Source of the DNA: Clostridia bacterium
GTDB lineage: Bacteria > Bacillota > Clostridia > Oscillospirales > Acutalibacteraceae
Assembly: GCA_017618135.1 (NCBI GenBank)
Contig: JAFZUV010000001.1
Span: 1,627 to 65,626, forward strand
Direction of reading: 5' to 3'
Length of the DNA: 64,000 nt
Below the pieces are notes generated by a model, which saw only the letters and a list, made by a program, of their open reading frames with translations, was not told where the DNA came from and did no database searches. The position numbers and the translations under genes are program-made. Position 1 is the first letter of the stretch. The number at the start of each line of letters is the position of its first letter. Shown here piece after piece: positions 3,280 through 17,345 of the stretch.

Positions 3280-3510
3280 ATGAACACTGAATTTACGGAT
3301 AAATATGTAACCTTGGGTCTGAAAATTGCTTATTACAGAAAGAAGGCTGGTTATACTCAAGAAGTGTTTGCTGAGCTTATTGATAAAAGTGTGAATTTTG
3401 TCGGTCAAGTCGAAGGACCCGGCACAATTAAGGGAGTATCTCTCGAAACGCTTTTTAAGATGGCGCAAGTGCTTAACATACCGCCCTCAAAGCTGTTGGA
3501 GGACGATTAA
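3280..3510 (+). CDS. XRE-family HTH transcriptional regulator (76 aa)
   Basis: LGLKIAYYRKKAGYTQEVFAELIDKSVNFVGQVE is a canonical Cro/C1 HTH. Confidence 0.85.
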   Translation: MNTEFTDKYVTLGLKIAYYRKKAGYTQEVFAELIDKSVNFVGQVEGPGTIKGVSLETLFKMAQVLNIPPSKLLEDD

Positions 3511-3517
3511 AGCATTA

Positions 3518-3548
3518 AAGACTCTCCGCCGCCGGCGGAGAGTCTTTA
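3518..3548. terminator. intrinsic terminator hairpin after the XRE gene
   Basis: Perfect inverted repeat AAAGACTCTCCGCCG/CCGGCGGAGAGTCTTT directly after the stop. Weak U-tract. Confidence 0.45.
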
Positions 3549-3611
3549 AATACCGGGGAAGGGAAAATGTCCGGCATTTTTTGCGGTTATATATTATATA
3601 ATAATATTATA

Positions 3612-3640
3612 CTTGACATCCGTCGGCGTTTTTGTTATAA
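3612..3640 (+). promoter_or_regulatory. sigma-A type promoter with perfect consensus (TTGACA, 17 nt spacer, TGnTATAAT) driving the fibre/giant-protein operon
   Basis: TTGACA at 3612-3617. 17 nt spacer. TGTTATAAT (extended -10) ending at 3640. Predicted TSS ~3647. Confidence 0.65.
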
Positions 3641-3647
3641 TTTGCAC

Positions 3648-3752
3648 AGTAATCTATAAGGGCAAGACTGCAGCGATGTAGTTACGCAAAACTATAGGGA
3701 CTCACTGAGTCAGCCAGTTGCAGATATACTGCACCGGCTGATTATTTTTTTT
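3648..3752 (+). ncRNA. candidate GEMM/c-di-GMP-I riboswitch with terminator expression platform (5' leader of the operon)
   Basis: Leader contains GGGCAAGAC, then a 5-bp hairpin capped by GNRA tetraloop GCGA (CTGCA-GCGA-TGTAG), then ACGCAAAAC. These resemble the conserved GGCAAAC...GNRA...ACGCAAAGC core of GEMM-I. A small hairpin GACTC-ACT-GAGTC follows. Then a terminator: stem CAGCCAG-TTGCAG/CTGCAC-CGGCTG followed by TTATTTTTTTTT (3709-3752). Confidence 0.4.
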
Positions 3753-3794
3753 TCGGCGGCCGGCAATTAGGTAAAAAAGAAAGGGGCGAGGCTG

Positions 3795-4760
3795 TTGAAT
3801 CTTACAAAAAAACAAAAGCGATTTCTCTTCGGTAAGAGTATGTCGCTTACCGCGCTCGCTCTTTTGATAATATTAACCGTAGTGGTAGGCTCCATTATTT
3901 CGCTCGGCTGGTTTGCAAACAGAGATACGGCGGATGCAAACGGAGTTAGCGTTACCGCGAAAGAGGAGCGGTTTGAGCTTGCCGTTTCAGGAGAGCAGGT
4001 ATTGCCGTTTGCCAATGATTCGACAATTATAACCTATCTTAATTCGGTTGCCGGCGGCAGCTACGAAAAACGCGCTTCAACCGAAAGGGAGCACACATCC
4101 ATTCTTTGCAGGGTAATAAATGAAAAACCGCATATTGCCGGCAGTGATGAGTTAGCTCCCGGCGCATTCGGAAGAATAAGCTTCGATATAGTTTTGCAGG
4201 CGGGCGATCCCGTAAGAGATTATGAGATATCGCTTGATTACCTGCCTCTTGATTTAGTCGCCGGTGTTCCTCAGGCGGTAGATAACGCTGACATTGATGA
4301 TCTTAAAGATTTGATTAGCGGTCACATTCTGCTTTTTAACACACGCTCCGCCCTTATAAACGGAGGATACTACTACTCTGACAGGATAACGAACAAAAGA
4401 TTTGTTTTCAGCCCTTCCGAGCATACGCCGAGCGTCGAGTCCGACGGTATTCACTACACGGTTGAGTTTTACTTTATCTGGCCTGCTACATTTGCTCAGT
4501 TGGCTTTGAAGCAAGACAGTCCGAAACTGCATTTGCATCCTGTATTCCAAACCGAGGCGTTGCGGCTTGAAATGCTTAATTACATAATTGAAAATCAAGA
4601 TGAGTTTTTCAGAAATCTCGGCCAGGGCATCAATTTTTCCGCAGAGTCGTTCGAGGAAACCTTTTTTGTAGAGTTGAGCGACGGGTATAATACCGCCGAT
4701 CAGTTCATTGGTGATAAAGCTCATTTTCTTGTGATTTGTTCTACAGTAAATCCGGTGTAA
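3795..4760 (+). CDS. secreted TasA/camelysin-like protein (SipW-cognate-type N-terminus), paralog 1
   Basis: N-term K-rich segment, hydrophobic helix, then LGWFANRDTADANGVSVTAKEE (compare TasA GGGTWAAFND...GTLDLSAKEN). Internal LAPGAFGRISFDIVLQAGDPVRDYEISLDY resembles TasA LKPGDKLTKDFQFENNGSLAIKEVLMALNY. C-terminal YTVEFYFIWPATF resembles TasA IKLQFSFEATQWN. TTG start with AAGGGG RBS. Confidence 0.5.
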   Translation: MNLTKKQKRFLFGKSMSLTALALLIILTVVVGSIISLGWFANRDTADANGVSVTAKEERFELAVSGEQVLPFANDSTIITYLNSVAGGSYEKRASTEREHTSILCRVINEKPHIAGSDELAPGAFGRISFDIVLQAGDPVRDYEISLDYLPLDLVAGVPQAVDNADIDDLKDLISGHILLFNTRSALINGGYYYSDRITNKRFVFSPSEHTPSVESDGIHYTVEFYFIWPATFAQLALKQDSPKLHLHPVFQTEALRLEMLNYIIENQDEFFRNLGQGINFSAESFEETFFVELSDGYNTADQFIGDKAHFLVICSTVNPV

Positions 4761-4779
4761 CGATCCGTAGGAGATATGT

Positions 4780-5541
4780 ATGAAAAACAGATTGAACCCA
4801 AAAGCTTTATTTGATACAAGGTTGTTAAGACCGTTTACAGCGCTTGTATTGGCGTTTGTTTTGCTTACCTTGTCGCTTGTTGCCATCGCGTGGTTTTCTT
4901 ACGTGAGAAGAATGGGCGCGGTGGCTGAAATAACCGACCCTACCGCTATTTTCATAAACGCGGGCAATGCGGAGGATGTGCGGTATCTGGATCTCGGCGG
5001 CATTGATGTTGAAGGTGAGAACAGTTACAAGGATTTTGTTTTCTGCATTCGCGGCAACCATGTAAGCAACTATAAAATTCAGCTTTCCTATACCACAAAC
5101 AACCAATTTGATTATGAGATTTATACTGCGACAATGGTGACCTCACCTGGAGCGGTACCGGCAAATCCCGAAAGCCTTGTGGTATATGATACGCATGACG
5201 GTTCTTCGGGTACGCAGTATTATTATGCCGCCTCGGGCGCTACACCGCTTCCGGGCAGCTTTTTGAATAAAGATACAGGGGCTTCCGAAAAGCTGGCGAA
5301 GAATAACGACAGCTATTATGAGGACACATATACTCCCGGGGGTACAAACAGTACATACGATAACCGCCATAAATACGCAATTCCGCTTTATTGGCACACC
5401 TCGAGCTCTATTTCTCCGGTTATGGACGCAAACTCTGATTTTTGCGACTATTTTATTCTCAGAGTAATTTGGGACAGTAACAGCAGAAACAACAAGGAAA
5501 CGGACATAGTTTACATAGCGGCGAAGAACATTTCTGCTTAG
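4780..5541 (+). CDS. secreted TasA/camelysin-like protein, paralog 2
   Basis: N-terminal anchor then AIAWFSYV (compare CalY GGGTFAYFSD). FVFCIRGNHVSNYKIQLSY aligns with paralog 1 ISFDIVLQAGDPVRDYEISLDY. KYAIPLYWH aligns with HYTVEFYFIW. 20 nt from the upstream gene. Confidence 0.45.
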   Translation: MKNRLNPKALFDTRLLRPFTALVLAFVLLTLSLVAIAWFSYVRRMGAVAEITDPTAIFINAGNAEDVRYLDLGGIDVEGENSYKDFVFCIRGNHVSNYKIQLSYTTNNQFDYEIYTATMVTSPGAVPANPESLVVYDTHDGSSGTQYYYAASGATPLPGSFLNKDTGASEKLAKNNDSYYEDTYTPGGTNSTYDNRHKYAIPLYWHTSSSISPVMDANSDFCDYFILRVIWDSNSRNNKETDIVYIAAKNISA

Positions 5542-5589
5542 CTTATTGATAGTTGTTAATATCTATTTTAGTGAAAGGAGCGCCAAAGT

Positions 5590-6612
5590 GTGAAAATTAT
5601 GAAAATCATAAATACACAAAAGCGATTGATAATCGCCATAGTAGGCTTGGCGCTTATTGCCGCAATAATTTCAGGTGTGGCGCTCTTTGCCGAGTATATA
5701 AAGAGCAGCAGAGCCAAAAGGGTTATCGCGTCATACGGCGACGAGGGCTCGCTATTCTCATCCAATTATCTCGTTATGAACAGCAATACAGCGGTAAACG
5801 TTTATAAAAGAATATTCTATACAGAGAGTGGAGATTCTCCCGTTTCCGGCGGCGTTACCGTCTGTAATTACGCTCAGGGAAACCCCACGCGCGTCTATGA
5901 AAGCGATATAGAGTATGTTCTTACGGCAAGGCTTGTTATGCTCGGAGAATCGGCGGGAATGTATGTCAAGAACAACGCTACCGCGGGGGATGTAGGCGCG
6001 CATACCGTTAGAATAAAGCTTAAGGATTCGGGCACGGTTACTCTTTCTTCTTCAAACCTGTCGCATACCTTTGCGGCTTCAACACTCAGTCACAGGTCGG
6101 CGGTAACCGATATTTGCGACCTTGAATTTGACAGCGGCTTTAAAGACGCCGGATCTCTTTGCCTCTACCTCTGTGCTACTCCTACCGGTTCTCAGGCCGG
6201 CGTTCACACGCTTGACGCGGTATTTACGGTAGCGCTTAACACCGGTGAGGCGCGAAATGTCTGGGAAGGCGAGTTTAACGAAAAGACGAACACAGGGGTT
6301 CCGGCACAGCCCTATTACGATGGATTTAATTATATGATAACCGGAATGGGCAGCGGCAACTGCACGCTTTCCTGGAATAATCAGAAGCTGCAGATAAGTC
6401 AGGTGTTCTTAAGTGAACACGGCCTGACTCCGACTGTCGCGGGCAATCAATCATCGGTAACATTTCCTGTGGATTCGGATATTGTTAACCGCTATGATGT
6501 ACAGTTTTATTATGCTGATTCTTCGGTAACCTTCTCAAGTTGGAGCGAGCTTACCGGAACATCGAGCAGTGACGGATATGTAAAGCTTGTTTATGTAGAA
6601 TCTGCCGAATAG
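5590..6612 (+). CDS. secreted N-terminally anchored protein, probable diverged paralog 3 of the TasA-like set
   Basis: N-term MKIMKIINTQKR + hydrophobic helix + ALFAEYI. S/T/G/N-rich beta-type composition. Same operon, 49 nt gap. Confidence 0.35.
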   Translation: MKIMKIINTQKRLIIAIVGLALIAAIISGVALFAEYIKSSRAKRVIASYGDEGSLFSSNYLVMNSNTAVNVYKRIFYTESGDSPVSGGVTVCNYAQGNPTRVYESDIEYVLTARLVMLGESAGMYVKNNATAGDVGAHTVRIKLKDSGTVTLSSSNLSHTFAASTLSHRSAVTDICDLEFDSGFKDAGSLCLYLCATPTGSQAGVHTLDAVFTVALNTGEARNVWEGEFNEKTNTGVPAQPYYDGFNYMITGMGSGNCTLSWNNQKLQISQVFLSEHGLTPTVAGNQSSVTFPVDSDIVNRYDVQFYYADSSVTFSSWSELTGTSSSDGYVKLVYVESAE

Positions 6613-6639
6613 GCAAAAACTGTTTTAAAGGGTAGAAAA

Positions 6640-9600
6640 ATGGTAAAACACTTAAAATCAAACAAGTTAATAGCATGGTGTACGGTATGCTGCCTTTGCG
6701 CAGCTGTTATCGGCGTTTCATTCGGTTTGTTGACTGTTTTGGCAAACGATTTGCCCGAACAGCCGGCTACGACTGTTGCAATTTCCTCTTCCGATGACTT
6801 GATTACATACTCGCGCGAATACTGGCGGGGAGGGCACAATCCGAACGATACCATACAACTGGCGTTAAGCTCCGGTACCGGCTTCCTTTTGCCGTCCGCT
6901 GATGAGGGATATATTTCCATAGGTAACGATGACCGTCCGTTCAACGGCAAAATTGAAATTGCCGATAATGCAATAAGCAGTTTTATGACCGATGTGTCGC
7001 TTTTCGGTACTGTTACTACCGATATGCGCATTGTAAACGCTTCGGATGTGCCGCGTGAAATTCAGATTGCGCGTATAGAAGAGGCGGATTCTCCGCTTTT
7101 TGCCGCAAGCGTTGTGAAGGGTGCTGTCAACAACACCACCGATTGGCGCGTGTGCTTAAAGCCTGATGACCGTGACTCTGTAAACAAAACGGCTTTCTCT
7201 TTTGCCGGAGCGATAGGAAGTATTGCGGCGGAATGCAAAGTCGGCTTCGATTTTACGCACGATTCGGTTTCGTATTTGAGTGTTCCGGCAAACGCGGTCA
7301 GTGCCTCGGATATAGGGCTTATATGCGGCAGTCTCGGCGCTGATGCAGAGCTTACCGTTAAAATAACATCGACAAACTCCTTTAATATAACCTCTTCCGG
7401 CGGTCACGCGGGCGGTATAGCGGGCATAGTTGCGGCAGGGGCTAAGATTATATTGGGCGATAATTATACATCTCCCGCGAATGTTACCGCTTCCGCATCA
7501 GGCAAGTACGCGGGCGGAATTGCGGGTTACGCCGCTGATTCCGAAATAGACCTTAATTCATATACCGCGACCGTCTCAAAAACCGTATCGGGCGCGGCAG
7601 GCGCCGGCGGTGCGTATGGATACTATTTAAGCACTGTGGGCAACGGCACCGGGGCGAGTGCCGGCGTTCGTACATTCGAGCTTGCCGGTATCAATACGGA
7701 TTCCGGTTTTGTTATTGCGCGCGGTACCGATGCCGGTGCGTTTATAGGAATGCTTGAAGCGCAGACCGATATTACCGTTACCGAAACGGGAGCTGTTGTA
7801 TCAGATTCGACCTTCACAAAACAGGTCAGTTTTACGGGTGGTACAAATCGCGGCGGTATTATAGGTAAATACGCAAATAATAATCTCATAAACACATTGG
7901 ATATACATAATGCAAAGGTAAAGGTGCTTGCAAGCAGCGGTACTACTTCCTATAGCGGCGGCGTAGTGGGAAATCTTGGAAGTACCGGCCCCGTTTATGC
8001 AAAAATCGGCGATTTTCGCCTTTCGGTAGCAGGGTCCGCGGCAATGCAAGGCGGTCTTCTCGGCACCGCCAACTCCACCGGCAGTTTTATAGATGTTCAA
8101 AATCTTATAGATATCGACGGTTCGACTACTGCGGGTCTTGTGAATTACCTTAATGCCGGAGTTCTGAGAGTTTCGGGGACTACCGATCTTGCAGGCGCCA
8201 CGCATGGTACGGCACAGTTGGTAAGACAGAGGGGTAACGCTTTGGTCTATGCTTTAGGCTCCGGCTCAGACGCGAGCTGGACGCTCAAGCGCGGCTCAGG
8301 TCTGGTCGACGATATCGGTGACTGGGGCGAGATATTAAGGCTTTCCACTGCTAACGGTCTTGCGGAAAGCGATTTCTTTACGGTGAATATGGGCGCGCAT
8401 AGCGTGACTGTGACAGGTCATGTTCAGAATATGGGCACTATCAAGGATTTTGTAAAAACCGCGCTCAATATTCAGATAAACTATCAGGACTGTGGCTCTC
8501 TGCTGCTTTCCTCCGCTTCACGCAGCAGTACGATACTTGCTTCAAATCTTTCTATAACCGCAGATATTGATTTAAGCGGAACCGGCATAGAGTCGCTTAC
8601 AAAGGACAACGGCGAAAACGGCGTTTACACCGGCTCGTTTAACGGCAACACCCATAAGATAACACTTGCGATCGGCGAACCGTACGGAAAAAGCGGCTCC
8701 ACTACGCTCAGCGCGCCCACGAACATAGGCAACAACAATTACGGTACTATTATTGATCATTATTATTCAGGTCTTTTCGCAAAAATGCAGAACAATTCGG
8801 TAAGTAATCTTACGCTTGACGGATATATATCTCTTTGCGGTTGTAGAAATGTTGATTATAAGGTTGGAGCGGTAGCGGCGAGCATTTCGGGTACCACCAC
8901 GCCGCTGACCCTTTCCGGGATCGATTCCAAAACGGATATATATCTTTATACACAAGGTACCAAAACTACAACTATGAACATTTTCGCCGGCGGCGCGATA
9001 GGATATATCGAACCCGAGACCGGCGGCACAGTTTCCATATCCAATTGTACTTTTGAAAGCGACATTACATTAAAGAGCACCATTGCTCACGGCAACGCGG
9101 TAGGCGGCGCCATAGGCAAGGTGGATTCCGTAAGCAGTCTGACCTTCGACTTTGACGATATCACAATAGGCGGTACATACAACAACAGAGTTACCGGCTC
9201 TTCGGAGTACGCAGGTCATAAATACGGAGGACTTATCGGTTATATCGCCCCCAACTCCGGCTCCTTTACCCGCAATGTTACGCTCAATAATATTACCGTT
9301 ACAAACGATGTTTCCATAACATCGGGCGTTAAATGCACCACCCGCTCGGGCGGCGCCGGTGCGTTTATCGGCGGCGAGTGGGAGGATACCAATGTTACTA
9401 TCGGTACATTAGGCGATACCGACGGTGTTATTATAGGTGAAACAGCCGCAGGTACCGGTCCTTCAATAACCGTAACCTCCGCAGATTCAAATAAGCCGAC
9501 GGTTTCAGCGCTTGTTCAGAAGGCTACGGGACATTGGACTGTAAATCATACGAAGGTAAACAAGGCTTCCGTTACCGCGTCGTCAAGCTCGGTGTTCGGT

Positions 9601-12600
9601 TTTCTTGTGGGAGACGGGGTATGTCACAGCAGCAGCACCGCCGCTTCATCCACGCTTTATCTTGATTTGATAAGCGACGGATATGATATAGCGAACACTG
9701 TGTTCAGCGGCACTTTTGATGTGTTTGACGAGGTAGTGGGATTTTCCGCGGTAATGTCAAGCAATATAGAAGATAACGGGCAGGCGATAGTGTCTATACG
9801 CACGCCGTCCGGCGCGGCGCTTATTATGAATGGTTCCGCCTGCAATACATATCAGAATCAAACGACATACGGTAAAACCACCAAAACTTCAAATTCAAAC
9901 ACAAGATACTACTATAATCTTGACCTTATCCGCGAGAAGGCAACCAAGAGTGACGCCGAAAAGATGTTGCTTTTAAGCCTTTATAAATACGCCCACAGAA
10001 CCATACGAAACAACGGTTATTTTAACAACGCATACAGTAACAGGATATCGGGTAGCTGCGATATGTCGGGGCTTTCCTACTATCCGGTAGATGCTTCGGG
10101 TATAACCATACAAAACGCGAGTATTAAATTCTATAATGATGAAATAGAGGCGGGCGAAGGCGGCTCAGGTGACAGTGACGGCGCCGTGCGTTCCACCCGT
10201 ACGGACAGTCCGAGAACACAGCATTATATGATGCATGAATCGGTATTCCGCAATTACACCGGGGATTTGACCGTCAGCGGACTTCACCTTGCAGGAAATG
10301 TAAGTAACCAACACGGCGGGGATGACAGCGGTTTCCTTATCTGTGGAATGCTCGGGAACACAAACGATACGGCGAGAATTTCCATTTCGGGCGTTGTTCT
10401 TGACGGTGCATATATAGTGCGCTCAGGCAGTTATGCACCGCTGCTTATAAACAGGATAGGTAAAAATGTAAAGTTTGAGCTTGATGGAGTTGCCGCTATT
10501 GCCGGCGCCGGTACTAATATGTATCCCACAACAACTACGGCTGTGGCCTCGAGCCTTATAGGTGATGTCGGCTCGGATACCGCCATAAACATCAATCTTA
10601 CCTTCTCGGATATCCGCCTTGATGCGAGAACCGCGACAGGAGGACTCAGCGGTCTTTCCACCGCTTACGGAACAAGCCGTTCTATTTTTGACAGGGCAAC
10701 GCTTCTTAATTCCTTCAGATTTTTGAACGGAAGTATGGGCGAGTACAATTATACTTACAGCGAGGACTGGACTTCCTCTCAGCATCATGCAACCTACGGC
10801 GAGGAGGTTACAACTTCGGTTGAATATGCCGGTAGGCAGGATCATTACTACGATGATATTACGCATTATACGCATCCGACTGATCCCACCGGTGCTTCGG
10901 CATACGATTTCTCGTCGGGCTTTTTGCCGTATGTGTATGTAGACTACGATTCCGCAACGCTATATCACGAAATAAAGGTAAATGTTAAGGATGTTAATCT
11001 CACATCCGGCTGCGGTCAGTATAATGACCCTTATATAATTACCGACGGCGCGATGATAGCTACCGCCGCGAAGATTTTAAGCGGCAGTCCCGATAACGGT
11101 ATAGAAATACAATTACCTACTGATGTAGGCAGTGAGGATATGTGGTGTACATCACTGTCTACCCACGCGGTTTATACCTATAACGGAACAAACTTTGTAC
11201 TTAAATCAGATGGCAGTGACCCTAAGACGCTCGAAGTTGTCCGCACCTATTTGGCAGGCGCGTATTACAGCATTACGGCGGCGGAGATAGAGCTTCCCGC
11301 AACATATGTGGGACTGGGTTCGCTTACTGATTGGAGCAATACTACAGACTATGAGTGTAAATATGCGTTCAGGGGTGTAATTGTCGGCAACCGTAATATT
11401 ATTGTCAACCACTCGGCCAATCCGCTTATTAAAACAGCTAACGGATGTGTTGTAAAGGAAGCCACGGTGACGACCGACGCGTCGATTACCATAAGCCAGA
11501 ATTCCGTTCTGCCCTTCCGGTATGATAACGCGGGCTGTGCTTCATACGGAGCGGTAATAGGCCAGGTTATGGGCGGAGACAATATTATTGATCATGTGGG
11601 AGTAGGCTTTACCGGTACCGCCATTACGGCTGACTCTACAAATTGTAAAAGACTGGTTCCCGTAGGCGGCTATGTAGGTGTTATCGTAAACGGCGGCGTA
11701 GTATTCAAAAATATGGATAATGATGTTGACGCCACCGGTTTGCCCGCGGCAAAGTGCGCGTATATCGAGGACGCCGGCTGGCTCTATGTAAATCCGATAA
11801 TAGGCAGAGTAATAGCAGGTTACGCCTTTAACGAGGCTAACGCTTATGCCCGGCATTCGACCAAGCTTGATAACGGCAATAAGAACTACGACATTTCGGA
11901 TCTCAATCCGAATGATACAAAGCTTACGGTAAACGCTACCTCTTCAAGTAATTACACCGTTTCAGCGCCAAACGCACAATCGCTTTATATACTTTCGTGC
12001 ATTGTAAATTCCGGCGCAGGAAGCGCCGCGTACAACGCGAGTACCGAGCAGGATTACGCGGCGATCGCCAATACTCCGTGGATAGCTTACAGGAATTACA
12101 CCTGCACCCGTTGCGCCGATTACGATGAGGTAGGACATTCTGCCGCGGCTGACGGCGACTTTGCCACCGTAAGCGCTCAGGATGTTTACAGCGGCAGTAA
12201 CAAGACACCTTATATAATTAGGAACTATACGCAAAGCTCATCGGCTGTTTTCAAGGCGCGAAGCATTTGCGGCAATTCGGTTATAAATGAAATATCGCTT
12301 TCGGCGGGCACTTATAATTTAGCCAACAGCTTCAGGGGTATAGGCGGTATTTATACGAATAATACCGCGTGCAGGATACAGTTTAAGAAGCTCACCGGAA
12401 ACGGTGCCGAGCTTAACCTTAATATGCGCTATCTTGAATACAACCACGAAAGCGGCAACCAGGGTACTAAATCCAATAATCAGATTGAAAACTATAAGCC
12501 GTTTGCGGGCGCTGGATTCGGATTTTTCAATAATATGTATCTGAGCGGTTTTTCCGCGTCAAGCAACACAAACAGCGTTAAGAACTTGACTGTGTCGGGC

Positions 12601-15600
12601 AGTGTGTTCTACGATATAAAGAAACTGGCTGACGGTTCGGCTATAAAATATGCCTACGGTTGGCATAATTACAATAATTTGACAGGCTATTATCCCGATG
12701 TTGCCGATAGGATTGAAGCCGGAACGATACTTAATGTCGGCGGTATCGCCGGTACAACCAATAACAGCTCGTATCTGACTGGCGTAACGCTCAGCGGGCT
12801 GAGTGTTGAAGGAGCTAAGAATACCGGCGGATATATAGGCTACAGCGTTTCAAAGCATCTTGTCGCGGAGGGTTGCTCTACAAGCGGAATCAGTGTAAAC
12901 GGCGGCTTTTCCGCAGGCGGCATTATAGGAGGACTCAGCGGCAGTCAAATAAACGGCAACAGCGGGGCGGGCGCTAACTTTACCGTAAAGGGTACCTCCG
13001 AAACTCCTTCTACAATAAGCTTTACCAATATAAATGTTAAGGGCGAGCCAAGCTGCGCTAAAACCGACTTTAAAGATTTTTTACAAATGTTCCACTGCGC
13101 CGGAGGTCTTGCGGGTTATGTCAGCACGGGTAATTCAAATACCGCAACGGTTCAGTATGTAAGCGTTCAAGGTGGTTCAATTACCGCAACCAATAAAGAA
13201 AAACGCCCAAGCGATATGAGATACAAGATAATATTAGGCGGTATGTTCGGCAGACTTGAAGCAGCCTGTGTTAACTTCTCTGATTCTTCGGTCACCGGCG
13301 TTACGATTGACGGAAACACCTGTGGCGGACTTATCGGCTGTTCGAGAAACAAGTTAAACGGTAGCATTACAAACATATCGGTAACCGGCGGAACGGGCAA
13401 ATCGATCACGGCTACAAATATGGTCGGCGGCATTCTCGGATTTTACTATGGCGGCGACGCTTTAAGTCTCCAGGTATCCGCGTTCACCCTTGAAAACTAT
13501 TCGATTATTTCTTCGCACGACGCGGAAAAAGCGAGTGCCGGCGGCCTTGTGGGAACCCTTACAACGGGCGGCAACACGGTATTTAATATTTACGACAGTA
13601 TAATTCGCAACTGTACCGTATCGAGAAGAGCAACATATGTTACAGGCGACAACCAACTTTTAGGCGTAGGCGGTATGTTCGGCGCGCTTTCCGCGTCCAA
13701 CGGTAATGTCAGGGGTCACAATATTCTTATTGACGGCGTCAGTGTTGTAAACAACGGTGGTAACAAGGCGCCCGGTATGATGATAGGTACAAACAACGGC
13801 TTGTCGGTTAAATTTACCGGTGTGTCCATACAGGGCGGAACCTCCGCCACCGTGCCGGTTGTGGGAATTGATTTAAACTCTTCCGGTGTTTACGGCTCGT
13901 CCGGGTATGTGGTTATGGCTGACTTTGACGGCGACTGTAAAGCGCTTTCGCACAATGAATCCGAATCAAGCTTTTATAACTCAACAAACGACCTTGCGGC
14001 GGCAAGCCCGTTTGTTACGGTAAATCCGTATTCGAGCGTTGGCAACAACCTGCTTAACCTTACGGGGGACGGCGTATCGTCAACCGTAGCGGGACTTCCC
14101 ATTCAGGAAATAATCGCGGGCGATATAAGATACAACTATGCTTCGGGTTACAGGTCTGCTTTCTCGACGAGTCACCTTTCAACCTATAATTATGAGCAGA
14201 ACACCTCGTTTACCGATGATTTTGCCGTGCTTATAGTTGACGATATCAGCCGTCTTAACACAACGAATATGATAAACGCCTATATAAATCTTATGGCGGG
14301 TACACAGTATGACTATACTTCGGATCTTTCCAATGTGTTTGGCGTGAGCATATATAAGATGGTATATGATGAAGGCGAAGGCAAGTTTGTCAAATCAAAT
14401 GAAGCGGCAAACCTTAAGCGGCTGGGCGGTCAGTTCTATATGAATATCGACAATGTTGATACCGCCGGCAATATGTTCTCGCTTATAGATGTTAAATACT
14501 ACGACCCCAATAATACAAGTAAAACCGCGTATCACCTTTATATACCGGTTCTTGTAAAGAAACTGTTGACATTTGATTTCGTAATTGCAACGGGCACCGG
14601 AACTAACTACGAGCGCGCGTGGTATGACGACCGCTTCGGTAAACCGCTTATGGAAAATCTCGGCACTCCGGCAAGCGTATACTTCAAATATACATACTTA
14701 CGCTCGAAGGAGGAATGGGAAGCGGCGGCAAACGGCGGTGAAAATCTGCTGCGCAACTATGATAAAAAGCTTACCCTTTCAAAATCAAGCGCAATTCCCG
14801 ATCTTCCGGGCACTACAACTCTCGTGCTTGTAGACGCAAGTCGGGGAAGCAAACCGTATTACGCGAGCTTCTCAGATGTATACTCGGCGGGCGTGCTTAA
14901 CCTTTCAGGCTTTAAAGAAACGCTCGGCGACAATACAAGCACGGCGTTTACCCCGATTAATCTTGCGGATATGTTGAATCTCACAGCCGCCGCCGACGCG
15001 GAAGGTACACTCGTTTCCTGCGCCGAGAATGTGGCTACGGTGAAAGCGCAATTAAACGGTGTTGAAACCTTCTTCCGCGTAGCGACTGACAGTGACTCGG
15101 AGCTGCAGCACTATACCGTTTCGGTAGGACTGAACAATAATGGCAGTGGAGTTATAGAGCTTGATGAGCCGTATTACATTTCCTTCTTTACGGAGTCTAC
15201 CGTAAGTAATACCGTATATCACTATACGATAAGCGCTCCCGCAAGCTTTAATGATCCTTCCAATCCGTCTCGTATTGCGGATGCGGATAAGCTGCAAAAC
15301 CGCGAAGGCACCGCTCACCTGATACTCGGAAATATATTTGTTCAAACCGGAGTATCTTTAACTACGACTCCGGCGAATACAGAGATGTCGGTTCTTACAA
15401 ACAACCATACGCTCGGAATAAATATGGGTACTACCGTAACTCTTGCGGCGTCACTTAAAAATGAGGTTCAGGGTTATCTCGGCACAAATTCCGGCATAAA
15501 TGTTTTCCATAGCTTTATGTTAAAGCTCACCCGTACGGATGAATCGGGAGCCAAAAAGGTTATTGAAGGTTCGCCCTCCGTCAGCGGCACATATACGATA

Positions 15601-16512
15601 TCCTCTGCTAACGGAACCGTTGCGGCAACTAATCCGGCGGATAATCTTATAAATGTTACCAGCGGCTACGCGGAGGTATGTAGTGCAAATGTAAACCAGA
15701 ACATAAACGCATATCTCGTAAATGGCGGCGGTGCCGTGATAAACGCTACCGTTTCTATGGATTATCAGACTGACGGTGCCGTGTCTGCTCAGTTCCCGAA
15801 CCGTGAGGATCCCATGAACACAACTATCGGTACTACCGCGTCTTGTACATCTAATATTGCGTATGACCGGGCGGGTACTTCGTACAGTAAGATTGCGGCA
15901 GGAGCTTCTGATTCTGCGGGTCACTCATACTACTGTAGAATTGATAATAAAAAAGCAAAGCTATATTATAATGTAGAGAGCGATATATTTGTGGGCGATT
16001 ACGGACCGCTCGGCATTAACCCGCTTGACTCCGGCGCCGCAACAAGAGTGCCCTTCTCAACGCTGGCGATTTACGATATATCCGATATCGAGCAGGTGGC
16101 GGCGGGCTACGATACGGTAAGGGTGGCAATCAGCCTTTATAAAAAGACCGACGGATATTCCGCGAGGCTTAACATCCCCACATATATGAGCTCGGTACAG
16201 ATGAAGAATTACACCGAAGAGACCGGGTACTCGGAGAGCAGAACCAATCCCACCGAGTTTGTATTCATCCTGCCGCGCTCTGCGGTAGAGCGTGCTTCCG
16301 CTACGGCTACTTCGCTTGAAATACCCATAGATTATACCGTCTTTACGGGCGCTGAGTTTGAGAGTGCGGGACTTGAATATTCAAATTACAAAATATCAAT
16401 TTCCGCCGAGCTGTTAGACAGCAGCGACCCTTCTTCTCCGCTTATTGCCTCTCAGGCTGAAAATTATCTCATATATACAAATGCCCGTATATTGCCTGAC
16501 TTTATAGATTGA
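6640..16512 (+). CDS. giant (3290 aa) secreted/N-anchored surface protein built from GLUG-like GG[ILVM]xG beta-helix repeats. No LPXTG, dockerin or other C-terminal anchor
   Basis: Uninterrupted 9.87 kb ORF. Signal/anchor MVKHLKSNKLIAWCTVCCLCAAVIGVSFGLLTVLAND. At least 18 repeats such as AGGIAGY, GGIIGKYANNNLINTLDIHNAKV, GGVVGN, GGLLGT, GGAIGY, GGLIGCSRNKLNGSITNISVTG, GGILGF, GGLVGT, GGMFG. These fall in two blocks (~7357-9190 and ~12697-13840) separated by low-repeat S/T/N/Y-rich regions. 28 nt after paralog 3. Confidence 0.8.
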   Translation: MVKHLKSNKLIAWCTVCCLCAAVIGVSFGLLTVLANDLPEQPATTVAISSSDDLITYSREYWRGGHNPNDTIQLALSSGTGFLLPSADEGYISIGNDDRPFNGKIEIADNAISSFMTDVSLFGTVTTDMRIVNASDVPREIQIARIEEADSPLFAASVVKGAVNNTTDWRVCLKPDDRDSVNKTAFSFAGAIGSIAAECKVGFDFTHDSVSYLSVPANAVSASDIGLICGSLGADAELTVKITSTNSFNITSSGGHAGGIAGIVAAGAKIILGDNYTSPANVTASASGKYAGGIAGYAADSEIDLNSYTATVSKTVSGAAGAGGAYGYYLSTVGNGTGASAGVRTFELAGINTDSGFVIARGTDAGAFIGMLEAQTDITVTETGAVVSDSTFTKQVSFTGGTNRGGIIGKYANNNLINTLDIHNAKVKVLASSGTTSYSGGVVGNLGSTGPVYAKIGDFRLSVAGSAAMQGGLLGTANSTGSFIDVQNLIDIDGSTTAGLVNYLNAGVLRVSGTTDLAGATHGTAQLVRQRGNALVYALGSGSDASWTLKRGSGLVDDIGDWGEILRLSTANGLAESDFFTVNMGAHSVTVTGHVQNMGTIKDFVKTALNIQINYQDCGSLLLSSASRSSTILASNLSITADIDLSGTGIESLTKDNGENGVYTGSFNGNTHKITLAIGEPYGKSGSTTLSAPTNIGNNNYGTIIDHYYSGLFAKMQNNSVSNLTLDGYISLCGCRNVDYKVGAVAASISGTTTPLTLSGIDSKTDIYLYTQGTKTTTMNIFAGGAIGYIEPETGGTVSISNCTFESDITLKSTIAHGNAVGGAIGKVDSVSSLTFDFDDITIGGTYNNRVTGSSEYAGHKYGGLIGYIAPNSGSFTRNVTLNNITVTNDVSITSGVKCTTRSGGAGAFIGGEWEDTNVTIGTLGDTDGVIIGETAAGTGPSITVTSADSNKPTVSALVQKATGHWTVNHTKVNKASVTASSSSVFGFLVGDGVCHSSSTAASSTLYLDLISDGYDIANTVFSGTFDVFDEVVGFSAVMSSNIEDNGQAIVSIRTPSGAALIMNGSACNTYQNQTTYGKTTKTSNSNTRYYYNLDLIREKATKSDAEKMLLLSLYKYAHRTIRNNGYFNNAYSNRISGSCDMSGLSYYPVDASGITIQNASIKFYNDEIEAGEGGSGDSDGAVRSTRTDSPRTQHYMMHESVFRNYTGDLTVSGLHLAGNVSNQHGGDDSGFLICGMLGNTNDTARISISGVVLDGAYIVRSGSYAPLLINRIGKNVKFELDGVAAIAGAGTNMYPTTTTAVASSLIGDVGSDTAININLTFSDIRLDARTATGGLSGLSTAYGTSRSIFDRATLLNSFRFLNGSMGEYNYTYSEDWTSSQHHATYGEEVTTSVEYAGRQDHYYDDITHYTHPTDPTGASAYDFSSGFLPYVYVDYDSATLYHEIKVNVKDVNLTSGCGQYNDPYIITDGAMIATAAKILSGSPDNGIEIQLPTDVGSEDMWCTSLSTHAVYTYNGTNFVLKSDGSDPKTLEVVRTYLAGAYYSITAAEIELPATYVGLGSLTDWSNTTDYECKYAFRGVIVGNRNIIVNHSANPLIKTANGCVVKEATVTTDASITISQNSVLPFRYDNAGCASYGAVIGQVMGGDNIIDHVGVGFTGTAITADSTNCKRLVPVGGYVGVIVNGGVVFKNMDNDVDATGLPAAKCAYIEDAGWLYVNPIIGRVIAGYAFNEANAYARHSTKLDNGNKNYDISDLNPNDTKLTVNATSSSNYTVSAPNAQSLYILSCIVNSGAGSAAYNASTEQDYAAIANTPWIAYRNYTCTRCADYDEVGHSAAADGDFATVSAQDVYSGSNKTPYIIRNYTQSSSAVFKARSICGNSVINEISLSAGTYNLANSFRGIGGIYTNNTACRIQFKKLTGNGAELNLNMRYLEYNHESGNQGTKSNNQIENYKPFAGAGFGFFNNMYLSGFSASSNTNSVKNLTVSGSVFYDIKKLADGSAIKYAYGWHNYNNLTGYYPDVADRIEAGTILNVGGIAGTTNNSSYLTGVTLSGLSVEGAKNTGGYIGYSVSKHLVAEGCSTSGISVNGGFSAGGIIGGLSGSQINGNSGAGANFTVKGTSETPSTISFTNINVKGEPSCAKTDFKDFLQMFHCAGGLAGYVSTGNSNTATVQYVSVQGGSITATNKEKRPSDMRYKIILGGMFGRLEAACVNFSDSSVTGVTIDGNTCGGLIGCSRNKLNGSITNISVTGGTGKSITATNMVGGILGFYYGGDALSLQVSAFTLENYSIISSHDAEKASAGGLVGTLTTGGNTVFNIYDSIIRNCTVSRRATYVTGDNQLLGVGGMFGALSASNGNVRGHNILIDGVSVVNNGGNKAPGMMIGTNNGLSVKFTGVSIQGGTSATVPVVGIDLNSSGVYGSSGYVVMADFDGDCKALSHNESESSFYNSTNDLAAASPFVTVNPYSSVGNNLLNLTGDGVSSTVAGLPIQEIIAGDIRYNYASGYRSAFSTSHLSTYNYEQNTSFTDDFAVLIVDDISRLNTTNMINAYINLMAGTQYDYTSDLSNVFGVSIYKMVYDEGEGKFVKSNEAANLKRLGGQFYMNIDNVDTAGNMFSLIDVKYYDPNNTSKTAYHLYIPVLVKKLLTFDFVIATGTGTNYERAWYDDRFGKPLMENLGTPASVYFKYTYLRSKEEWEAAANGGENLLRNYDKKLTLSKSSAIPDLPGTTTLVLVDASRGSKPYYASFSDVYSAGVLNLSGFKETLGDNTSTAFTPINLADMLNLTAAADAEGTLVSCAENVATVKAQLNGVETFFRVATDSDSELQHYTVSVGLNNNGSGVIELDEPYYISFFTESTVSNTVYHYTISAPASFNDPSNPSRIADADKLQNREGTAHLILGNIFVQTGVSLTTTPANTEMSVLTNNHTLGINMGTTVTLAASLKNEVQGYLGTNSGINVFHSFMLKLTRTDESGAKKVIEGSPSVSGTYTISSANGTVAATNPADNLINVTSGYAEVCSANVNQNINAYLVNGGGAVINATVSMDYQTDGAVSAQFPNREDPMNTTIGTTASCTSNIAYDRAGTSYSKIAAGASDSAGHSYYCRIDNKKAKLYYNVESDIFVGDYGPLGINPLDSGAATRVPFSTLAIYDISDIEQVAAGYDTVRVAISLYKKTDGYSARLNIPTYMSSVQMKNYTEETGYSESRTNPTEFVFILPRSAVERASATATSLEIPIDYTVFTGAEFESAGLEYSNYKISISAELLDSSDPSSPLIASQAENYLIYTNARILPDFID

Positions 16513-16524
16513 TTTTATATGAAT

Positions 16525-16560
16525 AACCGCCGAATCGAAAAAGATCCGGCGGTTGTTTTT
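16525..16560 (+). terminator. intrinsic terminator closing the 4-gene operon
   Basis: CCGCCGAATC-GAAAAA-GATCCGGCGG hairpin followed by TTGTTTTT, immediately after the giant ORF stop. Confidence 0.6.
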
Positions 16561-16705
16561 AACTAATATAGCAAACTGCACAAAACAGCCAAGAAATAGT
16601 TGTTTAAACCGTCATATTTTGACTATTTATTTTATTGGTACCTCATGATAAAATAAATCATAGCGTATATAAGAATGAGAAAGATGAATAAAGGATGACG
16701 ATGAT

Positions 16706-17332
16706 TTGATTAAAGGCTTTTTTAAGAAACGGTATTTTTTGCCGCCTTTCCTGGTTTTAGCAACAAATCTGACAGTAAGCTTTTTGACTCGCCCGTTTAT
16801 TGACGCGGCAGCTACCTGCTTAGTAACTACCGTTGACAGGAAGATTCCATTTGTTCCGGAATTTATCTACATATATGTTTTTGCGTTTGTTCAGTGGCTT
16901 ATATGTATTCTGGCGGTTATGATAAAGGATAAAGAAAAATCCTTTTATTATTGCGGCGGAATAATATTCGGAAATCTTATGTCGGGCATAGTGTTTTTGG
17001 TGTTTCCCACAATTATGTCCATTCGTCCGGAGTATACGGGCGGAGGTTTAACAGGGGAGATTGTCAGGTTTATTTTTGCGGCGGATACCCCGCCGATGAA
17101 CATATTTCCGTCTATTCATTGTCTTTTCAGCTGGGGCTGTATGCGAATGATATGCGCCTTAGGCTCTGTGCCGAAAGCTTTGAAGGTTTTTAACGCTGTA
17201 TTTTCGGTACTGGTATTTTTATCGGTTTTGTTTGTAAAACAGCATGTGGTATATGATATCCCCGCGGGAATATTTGCTTTTGAGGCAGGTCTTTTCTTGA
17301 CGAGAAAACTATTTCTGCGAGTAAAAGTGTGA
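16706..17332 (+). CDS. PAP2-family membrane phosphatase-like protein
   Basis: Multi-TM. PAP2-like motifs SIRPEY, FPSIH (PSGH-like), KQHVVYDIPAG (SRxxxxxHxxxD-like). TTG start. Confidence 0.45.
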   Translation: MIKGFFKKRYFLPPFLVLATNLTVSFLTRPFIDAAATCLVTTVDRKIPFVPEFIYIYVFAFVQWLICILAVMIKDKEKSFYYCGGIIFGNLMSGIVFLVFPTIMSIRPEYTGGGLTGEIVRFIFAADTPPMNIFPSIHCLFSWGCMRMICALGSVPKALKVFNAVFSVLVFLSVLFVKQHVVYDIPAGIFAFEAGLFLTRKLFLRVKV

Positions 17333-17345
17333 GGAGGAAACAAGT

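What the first reader, a model, noticed from the sequence alone, without database searches (positions are those of the whole stretch)
3648..3752. Candidate c-di-GMP-I (GEMM) riboswitch with intrinsic terminator in the operon leader
About 100 nt separate the predicted TSS and a canonical terminator (stem 3709-3739 + U9 at 3741-3752) that sits upstream of the first gene. This implies attenuation control. The leader carries GGGCAAGAC, then a GNRA-capped hairpin (CTGCA-GCGA-TGTAG), then ACGCAAAAC. That arrangement parallels the conserved GGCAAAC / GNRA-tetraloop P2 / ACGCAAAGC core of class I c-di-GMP aptamers. c-di-GMP riboswitches commonly control adhesins and pilus operons in Clostridia. A GGDEF cyclase (17346-18521) and an HD-GYP enzyme (25286-27367) lie within 10 kb. 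The 5' arm of the terminator stem may compete with the aptamer closing helix, which would give ligand-dependent read-through.
Basis: partly seen in the sequence, partly recalled or inferred. Interest (0 to 1): 0.75.

Follow-up and report, generated by a model that had tools for sequence, protein, structure and literature searches.

The report
c-di-GMP riboswitch switching on surface-protein operon
The leader RNA at 3648-3753 is a genuine class I cyclic-di-GMP riboswitch of an already described design, predicted to switch on a four-gene operon of unknown, probably cell-surface, proteins in an uncultured rumen Clostridia bacterium when c-di-GMP is high.

Summary
Rfam's c-di-GMP-I model (RF01051) matches window 3651-3725 (+) over its full length at 50.2 bits (gathering 35, E 7.5e-7). 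It is the only Rfam hit in the 64 kb. The positions aligned to the ligand contacts (G3661, A3688, C3721) and to the interhelical pair (C3685-G3713) carry the consensus bases. A perfect sigma-70 promoter (3613-3641) lies upstream. An intrinsic terminator follows (hairpin 3709-3742, U-tract 3743-3753), and its whole 5' arm is the 3' half of the aptamer. Aptamer and terminator therefore exclude each other, which predicts an ON switch. The same aptamer plus overlapping terminator precedes the orthologous operon in about 11 other rumen loci, with compensatory base changes in the stems. This receptor-less GYRA-tetraloop design with an overlapping terminator was described in 2007 and validated for Bc2 in Bacillus thuringiensis, so this is a new member of a known kind. 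The less ordinary part is the target. It is a conserved cassette of three 250-340 aa proteins plus a 3,290-aa protein, with no match in any family or structure library. More distant relatives of the cassette lack the riboswitch. Ligand binding and read-through are untested.

The parts
3613..3641 (+). Sigma-70-type promoter: TTGACA (3613-3618), 17-nt spacer, TG-extended TATAAT (3636-3641). Predicted transcription start is about 3648.
   Evidence: 12 of 12 hexamer matches, TG present. Similar promoters precede the orthologous aptamers in L019, L018 and L029. The start site is inferred, not mapped.
3651..3725 (+). c-di-GMP-I (GEMM-I) aptamer, full-length match to Rfam RF01051.
   Evidence: 50.2 bits against gathering 35, E 7.5e-7, model positions 1-87 of 87.
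3652..3655 (+). P1 5' strand (AUCU). It pairs with AGAU at 3722-3725. With one bulge the helix can extend to 3649-3651 / 3727-3729.
   Evidence: Read from the sequence and from the RF03167 alignment, which models P1. Energy evaluation. P1 is weak and its register is not conserved in orthologues, so this part is inferred.
3661..3661 (+). G equivalent to Vc2 G20 (model position 11), which recognises one guanine of the ligand. An A here marks cGAMP-sensing GEMM-Ib.
   Evidence: Alignment. The 27-nt spacing to the A47 equivalent matches Vc2 G20/A47, Vc1 G12/A39 and Bc1 G11/A38. The role of G20 against A20 is in PMC6140456. Invariant in 10 orthologues.
3662..3687 (+). P2 hairpin: 2-bp base (G3662-C3687, C3663-G3686), internal loop, 6-bp stem 3667-3672/3677-3682, GCGA (GNRA/GYRA) tetraloop 3673-3676. 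C3685 is the partner of G3713 in the interhelical pair (Vc2 C44-G83).
   Evidence: Five of the six stem pairs show changes on both sides across 10 orthologous leaders. The tetraloop is GNRA in all of them (GCGA, GUAA, GAGA, GGAA, GAAA, GCAA).
3688..3689 (+). Unpaired AA of the AAA linker. A3688 is the equivalent of Vc2 A47, which intercalates between the two guanines of the ligand.
   Evidence: (invariant). Weinberg 2007 reports that the linker is 'virtually always AAA'.
3690..3719 (+). P3 hairpin: 3690-3693/3716-3719, bulged A-U-A 3694-3696, 3697-3698/3714-3715, AG bulge 3712-3713 (G3713 is the G83 equivalent), 3699-3701/3709-3711, loop 3702-3708. It is short and has no 11-nt tetraloop receptor.
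   Evidence: 98-100% of cells paired; pair 3700-3710 changes on both sides; pair 3691-3718 varies GU/GC/AU. The receptor-less type with two bulged A residues is described in PMC1950547.
3720..3721 (+). J3/1 junction GC. C3721 is the equivalent of Vc2 C92, which forms a Watson-Crick pair with the second guanine of the ligand.
   Evidence: junction positions in the RF03167 structure line. C is invariant in 10 orthologues (column 74).
3709..3753 (+). Intrinsic terminator: hairpin 3709-3742 (5' arm 3709-3723, loop 3724-3728, 3' arm 3729-3742), then UAUUUUUUUUU at 3743-3753. The whole 5' arm lies inside the aptamer.
   Evidence: hairpin -17.9 kcal/mol; terminator state -32.3 against aptamer state -19.8 kcal/mol. 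Equivalent overlapping terminators occur in the orthologues.
3783..3797 (+). Ribosome-binding site GGGG (3783-3786) and TTG start codon (3795-3797) of the first gene. Neither takes part in the switch structures.
   Evidence: The protein from this start is identical to a deposited protein (P0001).
3795..4760 (+). Gene 1 (321 aa): N-terminal transmembrane helix, conserved GWF motif, then a beta-sandwich. No known family.
4780..5541 (+). Gene 2 (253 aa): N-terminal transmembrane helix and AWF motif. No known family.
   Evidence: hhalign to gene 1 matches only residues 1-47.
5590..6612 (+). Gene 3 (340 aa): N-terminal transmembrane helix. No known family.
6640..16512 (+). Gene 4 (3,290 aa): N-terminal hydrophobic segment and 16 GG[ILVAM][ILVAFM]G motifs in two clusters. 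No known family and no LPXTG motif at the C-terminus.
   Evidence: homologues are all unnamed and carry no Pfam domain.
16525..16560 (+). Terminator that ends the operon (AACCGCCG...CGGCGGTT followed by GTTTTT).
   Evidence: Read from the sequence. Not tested by a fold.

Best explanation
The element is a class I c-di-GMP riboswitch that works as a transcriptional ON switch. Transcription starts near 3648 from a consensus sigma-70 promoter. The first ~80 nt fold into the GEMM-I aptamer. It has P1, P2 with a GCGA tetraloop, and a short P3 without a tetraloop receptor. At low c-di-GMP, the 3' half of the aptamer (3709-3723: P3 3' strand, the C92-equivalent C3721, P1 3' strand) pairs instead with 3729-3742. 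This completes a terminator hairpin in front of a U9 tract, so transcription stops at about 3753 and leaves a ~105-nt leader RNA. When c-di-GMP is bound (contacts G3661, A3688, C3721), P1 and P3 are held in place. The terminator's 5' arm is then unavailable, and RNA polymerase reads through into the four-gene operon 3795-16512. No separate antiterminator helix is needed, because the aptamer itself is the antiterminator. Only about 25-30 nt separate completion of the aptamer from the U-tract, so the decision is probably kinetic (inference). Shown here: family membership by covariance model, conservation of the binding-site bases, covariation of the stems, the physical overlap of aptamer and terminator, and conservation of that overlap in orthologues. 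Inferred: ligand binding, direction and size of the response, the start site, and the function of the operon, which is probably a cell-surface or adhesive structure.
For: RF01051 matches over its full length at 50.2 bits against gathering 35, E 7.5e-7, and is the only Rfam hit in the window. The bases aligned to Vc2 G20, A47, C92 and to the C44-G83 pair are conserved in the window and invariant in 10 orthologous leaders (numbering checked). On 10 leaders, 96% of cells are paired, six pairs change on both sides, no shuffle of 500 reaches the observed covariation score, and slid registers give 10-38% paired. The promoter is 12/12 with an extended -10. The MFE of the full leader is the P2 hairpin plus the terminator hairpin 3709-3742 (-32.3 kcal/mol, z = -3.0). 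The aptamer-constrained fold is -19.8 kcal/mol and cannot coexist with the terminator. RF01051 hits also lie directly upstream of the orthologous gene in L002, L006, L011, L012, L015, L016, L018, L019, L021, L029 and L031/L032. Each is followed by a hairpin plus U-tract whose 5' arm overlaps the aptamer. The overlap measured 9-18 nt in the leaders where the fold isolated the hairpin, and the L006 hairpin is weak. The same design and its ON logic were proposed for 78 of 322 GEMM RNAs (PMC1950547). It was shown experimentally for Bc2 upstream of cap in B. thuringiensis (PMC4933901).
Against: No binding or termination experiment exists for this RNA. An energy-only fold of the aptamer alone does not return the junction. 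The aptamer state is 12.5 kcal/mol less stable than the terminator state before ligand and tertiary contacts are counted. P1 is only about 4 bp and is not conserved in register among orthologues. The P2 internal loop deviates from consensus (AAG instead of AAA at 3664-3666, U instead of G at 3683). Some aptamers with all contact bases conserved bind weakly (Vc1, PMC4744006). More distant cassettes carry no riboswitch, so the control is specific to some lineages.
Confidence: 0.85

Rival explanations
1. Same aptamer, but an OFF switch: c-di-GMP binding promotes termination, or represses the operon in some other way.
For: Class I c-di-GMP riboswitches can be OFF switches, for example the flgB riboswitch of C. 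difficile (PMC6366702). Bc1 shows complex dual regulation (PMC11218506).
Against: All 15 nt of the terminator's 5' arm lie inside the aptamer's 3' half, so a folded, ligand-bound aptamer and the terminator cannot coexist. There is no additional antiterminator helix that the aptamer could disrupt. The RBS and start codon are outside all switch structures. The overlap is conserved in the orthologues.
Confidence: 0.05
2. A GEMM-I-like aptamer with a different ligand, such as 3',3'-cGAMP (GEMM-Ib) or the unknown ligand of the GGC/UAU variants.
For: At the permissive threshold, the clan filter kept the variant model RF03167, which has a lower E-value in that small search. Single-base changes are known to alter specificity (PMC6140456).
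Against: The position equivalent to G20 is G, not the A of GEMM-Ib, in the window and in all 10 aligned orthologues. RF03167 scores 43.6 bits, below its gathering score of 59, and the window has ACGCAAA where that variant's consensus has ACGCGAA. A GGDEF cyclase with an intact motif and an HD-GYP enzyme are encoded in the window.
Confidence: 0.04
3. A decayed or very weak aptamer. The leader then acts mainly as a constitutive attenuator, and read-through is set by something other than c-di-GMP.
For: There are deviations in the P2 internal loop, a short P1 and a short P3 without a receptor. Vc1 shows that conserved contact bases do not guarantee tight binding.
Against: Aptamer sequence and pairing are maintained by compensatory changes across leaders whose downstream proteins are only 23-50% identical. 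That implies selection on the fold. The score is 15 bits above the gathering threshold.
Confidence: 0.05
4. A chance resemblance next to an ordinary terminator of the upstream HTH gene.
For: None beyond the short length of the motif.
Against: E is 7.5e-7. The HTH gene has its own terminator-like palindrome at 3516-3548, and a consensus promoter lies between it and the aptamer. The aptamer travels with the downstream operon in other genomes that have different upstream genes, for example an EAL gene in L029.
Confidence: 0.01

Closest known systems
Bc2 c-di-GMP-I riboswitch upstream of cap (collagen adhesion protein), Bacillus thuringiensis BMB171 (PMC4933901)
   Same: A class I aptamer is followed directly by an intrinsic terminator in the 5' UTR of a large surface-protein gene in a Firmicute. 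c-di-GMP binding favours read-through (ON, repression/de-repression), and terminated leader transcripts are about 100-120 nt.
   Different: Bc2 has been tested in vitro and in vivo; this element has not. The target here is a four-gene operon of proteins with no recognisable collagen-binding, Cna-B or LPXTG features. The organism is an uncultured rumen Clostridia bacterium.
Receptor-less GEMM RNAs with a GYRA tetraloop and a terminator overlapping the 3' stem (Weinberg et al. 2007, PMC1950547, Fig. 2B type)
   Same: It has a GYRA (GCGA) tetraloop, no 11-nt receptor, two bulged A residues at the base of the second hairpin (A3694, A3696) and an AAA linker. The terminator's 5' side overlaps the 3' side of that hairpin. 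The ON model was proposed for 78 of 322 representatives.
   Different: Within this operon-linked group, orthologues with GAAA, GAGA or GGAA tetraloops also lack the receptor. The 2007 survey found that GAAA loops usually come with one. The distal P3 is very short: 3 bp plus a 7-nt loop where the Rfam consensus has 16 further positions.
Vc2 (Vibrio cholerae) c-di-GMP-I aptamer, the structural reference
   Same: It has the same three-helix junction, G20/A47/C92-equivalent bases and the C44-G83-equivalent pair.
   Different: Vc2 has a GAAA tetraloop docked in a receptor in a long P3. This RNA has neither. Vc2's expression platform also differs.
Cdi-2-4 riboswitch upstream of pilA1 (type IV pili), Clostridioides difficile (PMC6366702)
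   Same: It is a Clostridia ON switch in which c-di-GMP relieves termination upstream of a surface-appendage operon.
   Different: Cdi-2-4 is class II (RF01786), an unrelated fold. No class II match exists here.

Membership tests
c-di-GMP-I riboswitch (GEMM-I, Rfam RF01051) | Covariance-model score at or above the curated gathering score, over the full model. | tested here: met
   50.2 bits against 35, model positions 1-87 of 87, E 7.5e-7.
c-di-GMP-I riboswitch (GEMM-I, Rfam RF01051) | [quoted passage not shown] | tested here: met
   G3662-C3687 and C3663-G3686; stem 3667-3672/3677-3682; GCGA loop 3673-3676. Five of six stem pairs covary. One deviation: the internal loop is AAG, not AAA (G3666), with U3683 opposite.
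c-di-GMP-I riboswitch (GEMM-I, Rfam RF01051) | AAA linker between the two hairpins, including the intercalating A47. | tested here: met
   A3688-A3690, invariant in 10 orthologues. The criterion comes from PMC1950547.
c-di-GMP-I riboswitch (GEMM-I, Rfam RF01051) | Ligand-contact bases G20 and C92 (Vc2 numbering). | tested here: met
   G3661 and C3721 by model alignment, invariant in orthologues. A register error of one base would still place a G and an A at the G20 and A47 positions.
c-di-GMP-I riboswitch (GEMM-I, Rfam RF01051) | Interhelical Watson-Crick pair C44-G83, described as universally conserved. | tested here: met
   C3685 and G3713, CG in 10 of 10 sequences. The criterion comes from PMC4744006.
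c-di-GMP-I riboswitch (GEMM-I, Rfam RF01051) | Second hairpin (P3) supported by pairing across relatives. | tested here: met
   98-100% of cells paired, one pair with changes on both sides and one with GU/GC/AU variation.
c-di-GMP-I riboswitch (GEMM-I, Rfam RF01051) | Closing helix P1. | tested here: inconclusive
   AUCU 3652-3655 can pair with AGAU 3722-3725, but the register is not conserved in the alignment and RF01051 does not model P1.
c-di-GMP-I riboswitch (GEMM-I, Rfam RF01051) | GNRA tetraloop receptor in P3 (present in about half of members, so not required). | tested here: not met
   There is no CCUAAG/UAUGG-type receptor. P3 closes after 3 bp with a 7-nt loop. This places the RNA in the known receptor-less subtype.
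c-di-GMP-I riboswitch (GEMM-I, Rfam RF01051) | Selective, high-affinity binding of c-di-GMP and a ligand-dependent change in expression. | not testable with these tools
   Needs in-line probing or ITC and transcription termination assays.
Intrinsic (rho-independent) terminator as expression platform | Stable G+C-rich hairpin immediately followed by a U-tract, mutually exclusive with the aptamer. | tested here: met
   Hairpin 3709-3742 at -17.9 kcal/mol, then UAU9. Its 15-nt 5' arm lies inside the aptamer. The pattern scanner missed it because of the internal loop and bulge.
c-di-GMP-II riboswitch (RF01786) | Covariance-model match. | tested here: not met
   No match at the gathering score in the window or at E<=10 in 3500-3900.
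c-di-GMP-I-GGC variant (RF03167) | Score at or above gathering 59, and the variant's core sequence (ACGCGAA). | tested here: not met
   43.6 bits, and the window has ACGCAAA.
GEMM-Ib (3',3'-cGAMP riboswitch) | Adenine at the position of Vc2 G20. | tested here: not met
   G3661, and G in all 10 aligned leaders. The criterion comes from PMC6140456.
TasA/camelysin-type or pilin-type fibre subunits (considered for genes 1-3) | Match to Peptidase_M73 or the SipW-cognate signal models, or a significant fold match to fibre subunits. | tested here: not met

The most novel reading that the evidence does not exclude
The riboswitch marks a so far undescribed c-di-GMP-induced cell-surface system of rumen Firmicutes. 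It would consist of three membrane-anchored or secreted beta-sandwich proteins, two of which share an N-terminal TM-(G/A)WF signature, plus a giant protein of more than 3,000 aa. Together they would build an adhesive fibre or coat for attachment to plant particles. The riboswitch would give the first functional handle on a gene cassette that has no match in Pfam, NCBIfam or the PDB.
Probability: 0.3. Interest if true: 0.55.

Novelty: new member of a known kind. Interest (0 to 1): 0.3.

Why it matters
The riboswitch itself adds nothing conceptually. Its class, its receptor-less subtype and the terminator-overlap ON design have been known since 2007-2008 and were validated in Bacillus. Its value is as an annotation. 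It assigns a regulatory input, high c-di-GMP (the sessile or adhesive state), to a conserved four-gene cassette that no family or structure library recognises. That cassette includes a 3,290-aa protein and is spread among uncultured rumen Clostridia, Ruminococcus, Lachnospiraceae and Bacilli MAGs. This suggests a testable role in attachment or biofilm formation on plant fibre. It also shows that riboswitch control of the cassette is present in some lineages and absent in others.

Tried and rejected
1. The consensus terminator scan found no plus-strand terminator. Folding showed the hairpin has a 1x1 internal loop and a bulge that the scanner does not allow.
2. Unconstrained folding of the aptamer alone gave a different, rod-like structure. 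I do not count this against the call, because GEMM-I depends on tertiary and ligand contacts that the energy model lacks.
3. I tried to include P1 in the covariation count, but its register shifts between orthologues, so I left it out.
4. The variant and class II models fall below threshold or give no hit.
5. I looked for positive feedback through the GGDEF gene. This is rejected as co-transcription, because a terminator (16525-16560) and a promoter-like site separate that gene from the operon.
7. Paralogy of genes 1-3 by hhalign: only the N-terminal 47 residues of genes 1 and 2 align, at 65% probability.
8. The afdb50 fold library was not available.
9. A permissive Rfam search of 12 homologous loci that lack the aptamer found no weak or truncated copy.
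10. A literature search for this riboswitch-operon pair in rumen organisms found nothing specific.

Full report
**Observation**

- GGGCAAGAC lies at 3660-3668.
- The hairpin CTGCA-GCGA-TGTAG lies at 3668-3681.
- ACGCAAAAC lies at 3684-3692.

A perfect sigma-70 promoter lies upstream: TTGACA 3613-3618, a 17-nt spacer, and a TG-extended TATAAT at 3636-3641 (12 of 12). This places the start near 3648.

The terminator is real but slightly misplaced in the finding. The hairpin spans 3709-3742 (13 pairs, one 1x1 internal loop, one bulge, -17.9 kcal/mol). It is followed by UA and a U9 run at 3745-3753. The pattern scanner missed it because of these irregularities. The whole leader folds better than all 200 dinucleotide shuffles (z = -3.0).

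The upstream XRE-type HTH gene (3280-3510) has its own palindromic terminator-like hairpin at 3516-3548. The leader is therefore an independent transcription unit.

**Identity**

A scan of the whole window against Rfam 15 gives one hit at gathering thresholds. It is RF01051 (c-di-GMP-I) at 3651-3725 on the plus strand, 50.2 bits against a gathering score of 35, E 7.5e-7, covering model positions 1-87 of 87. No class II (RF01786) match exists, even at E<=10 in 3500-3900. The variant model RF03167 (c-di-GMP-I-GGC) scores 43.6 bits, below its gathering score of 59. The window carries ACGCAAA where that variant has ACGCGAA.

The model alignment gives the following anatomy.
- **J1/2** ends with G3661.
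- **P2** has base pairs G3662-C3687 and C3663-G3686, a stem 3667-3672/3677-3682 and a GCGA tetraloop at 3673-3676.
- **Linker**: A3688-A3690.
- **P3**: 3690-3693/3716-3719, bulged A-U-A at 3694-3696, 3697-3698/3714-3715, an AG bulge at 3712-3713, 3699-3701/3709-3711, and a loop at 3702-3708.
- **J3/1**: G3720 and C3721.
- **P1**: a possible 4-bp helix, AUCU 3652-3655 with AGAU 3722-3725.

In the Vc2 reference, the ligand is contacted by G20, A47 and C92. An interhelical C44-G83 pair is described as universally conserved (PMC4744006; PMC6140456). Equivalent numbering in Vc1 (G12/A39) and Bc1 (G11/A38; PMC11218506) fixes the 27-nt G-to-A spacing. On that basis the equivalents here are G3661, A3688, C3721 and C3685-G3713. 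A G rather than an A at the G20 position argues for c-di-GMP and against cGAMP.

There are two deviations from consensus in the P2 internal loop, G3666 and U3683. They could form a G-U pair.

There is no 11-nt tetraloop receptor, and the distal P3 is very short. This is the receptor-less subtype that Weinberg et al. described in 2007 (PMC1950547). It has a GYRA tetraloop and often two bulged A residues near the base of the second hairpin.

**Comparative evidence**

The window comes from an uncultured rumen 'Clostridia bacterium' MAG. Gene 1 of the downstream operon has 17 homologues in the protein collection. Loci encoding relatives were fetched from genomes and metagenomes.

RF01051 hits of 48-67 bits lie directly upstream of the gene-1 homologue, on the same strand, in L002, L006, L011, L012, L015, L016, L018, L019, L021, L029 and L031/L032. 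The encoded proteins are only 23-50% identical to the window's protein.

An alignment of 10 leaders was scored against the P2/P3 model.
- The contact bases and the C-G tertiary pair are invariant.
- 96% of cells are paired.
- Six pairs change on both sides (five of the six P2 stem pairs and one P3 pair).
- No shuffle of 500 reaches the observed covariation score.
- Slid registers give only 10-38% paired.

The tetraloop is always GNRA but varies (GCGA, GUAA, GAGA, GGAA, GAAA, GCAA). The receptor is absent throughout.

**Mechanism**

The 5' arm of the terminator (3709-3723) consists entirely of aptamer nucleotides. These are the 3' strand of P3, including the G83 equivalent; J3/1, including the C92 equivalent; and the first two bases of the P1 3' strand. 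Aptamer and terminator therefore cannot form together.

The unconstrained MFE of the leader is the P2 hairpin plus the terminator (-32.3 kcal/mol). Forcing the aptamer gives -19.8 kcal/mol and removes the terminator. This 12.5 kcal/mol gap is what ligand and tertiary contacts would have to offset, or outrun kinetically. Only about 25-30 nt separate completion of the aptamer from the U-tract.

Every orthologous leader examined has a hairpin plus U-tract whose 5' arm overlaps the aptamer's 3' end. The overlap measured 9-18 nt in the leaders where the fold isolated the hairpin. The L006 hairpin is weak. The RBS (GGGG 3783-3786) and the TTG start (3795) are outside all of these structures.

The design therefore predicts an ON switch. 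c-di-GMP holds P1 and P3 in place, the terminator fails to form, and the operon is transcribed. Weinberg et al. proposed exactly this logic for 78 of 322 GEMM RNAs. It was demonstrated for Bc2 upstream of the collagen adhesion gene cap in B. thuringiensis (PMC4933901).

**What is controlled**

The operon has four genes, at 3795-4760 (321 aa), 4780-5541 (253 aa), 5590-6612 (340 aa) and 6640-16512 (3,290 aa). It ends at a terminator at 16525-16560. None of the four proteins matches Pfam (even at E<=10), NCBIfam (E<=1) or PDB sequences. Homologues of the giant protein are all unnamed and carry no Pfam domain.
- **Gene 1.** An AF2 model (pLDDT 71, pTM 0.66) shows an N-terminal transmembrane helix, a disordered linker and a beta-sandwich with helices.
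- **Genes 1 and 2.** They share only the N-terminal helix followed by a (G/A)WF motif (hhalign 65%). No other paralogy among genes 1-3 was detected.
- **The giant protein.** It has an N-terminal hydrophobic segment, 16 GG[ILVAM][ILVAFM]G motifs in two clusters and no LPXTG.

The cassette order is conserved in rumen Clostridia, Ruminococcus, Lachnospiraceae and Bacilli MAGs. Eight loci with ample upstream sequence have no c-di-GMP aptamer, even at E<=0.5 (L003, L004, L005, L007, L008, L009, L017, L026). Riboswitch control is therefore specific to some lineages.

**Context**

The GGDEF gene (17346-18521) has an intact GGDEF motif and no RxxD I-site. The HD-GYP gene (25286-27367, minus strand) has HD and GYP motifs. 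The organism can therefore make and degrade c-di-GMP.

These genes are 13.6 and 21.5 kb from the riboswitch. The cyclase lies behind the operon terminator with its own promoter-like site, so a simple co-transcriptional feedback loop is not supported. In L029 an EAL gene sits directly upstream of the riboswitch.

The rest of the window encodes sporulation and germination functions, a dockerin protein and housekeeping genes. This fits a spore-forming, fibre-degrading rumen Clostridia bacterium.

**Verdict**

This is a c-di-GMP-I riboswitch of the known receptor-less subtype with a known terminator-overlap ON platform, so it is a new member of a known kind. Ligand binding, the direction of the response and the function of the operon remain inferences. 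The modest interest lies in the target, a widespread and completely unannotated cassette with a giant protein, for which the riboswitch supplies a first, testable physiological cue.

Noticed in passing
window 3795-16512; also L003-L009, L017, L020, L026, L029, L031: A conserved cassette of three proteins (about 320, 250 and 340 aa, each with an N-terminal TM helix) plus a giant protein has no Pfam, NCBIfam or PDB match. It is spread across rumen Clostridia, Ruminococcus, Lachnospiraceae and Bacilli MAGs. Genes 1 and 2 share a TM-(G/A)WF N-terminus.
   Followed up: partly
L003 about 2000-2362; L007 about 2024-2952: Homologous cassettes without the c-di-GMP aptamer have long upstream intergenic regions (about 365 nt in L003, up to about 900 nt in L007) with no Rfam match. 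They may carry a different, undescribed regulator.
   Followed up: no
L029 279-2219 (and L030): An EAL-domain (c-di-GMP phosphodiesterase) gene lies directly upstream of the riboswitch-controlled cassette in another rumen contig.
   Followed up: no
window 16525-18521: The operon terminator (16525-16560) is followed by a promoter-like site and a two-gene unit. The unit is a weak PAP2-like membrane protein (16706-17332) and a multi-TM GGDEF cyclase (17346-18521) with an intact GGDEF motif and no RxxD I-site.
   Followed up: partly
window 3516-3548: A near-perfect palindrome (TAAAGACTCTCCGCCG CC GGCGGAGAGTCTTTA) follows the XRE/HTH gene 3280-3510. It is probably a bidirectional terminator and produced spurious microRNA-family matches on both strands.
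   Followed up: no
window 3653-3658 with 3693-3698: In the ligand-free MFE, the P1 5' strand pairs with the P3 5' strand (UCUAUA with UAUAGG). This would reinforce the OFF state. The pairing is not conserved in the orthologous leaders.
   Followed up: partly
A2 alignment (L011, L015, L016, L021 leaders): Orthologous aptamers with a GAAA tetraloop also lack the 11-nt receptor. The 2007 survey reported that GAAA loops usually come with a receptor. All members keep the GGG/CC stem and the AG bulge, which might act as an alternative docking site.
   Followed up: no
window 6640-16512, aa 1621-1732: A weak sequence match of the giant protein to tryptophan halogenases (E 3e-4, 20 bits over about 110 aa) is probably noise.
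   Followed up: no
window 22143-24443, 41768-45075, 52445-55054: SpoIIE, spore-germination genes and an 869-aa dockerin-bearing protein point to a spore-forming, cellulosome-associated organism.
   Followed up: no
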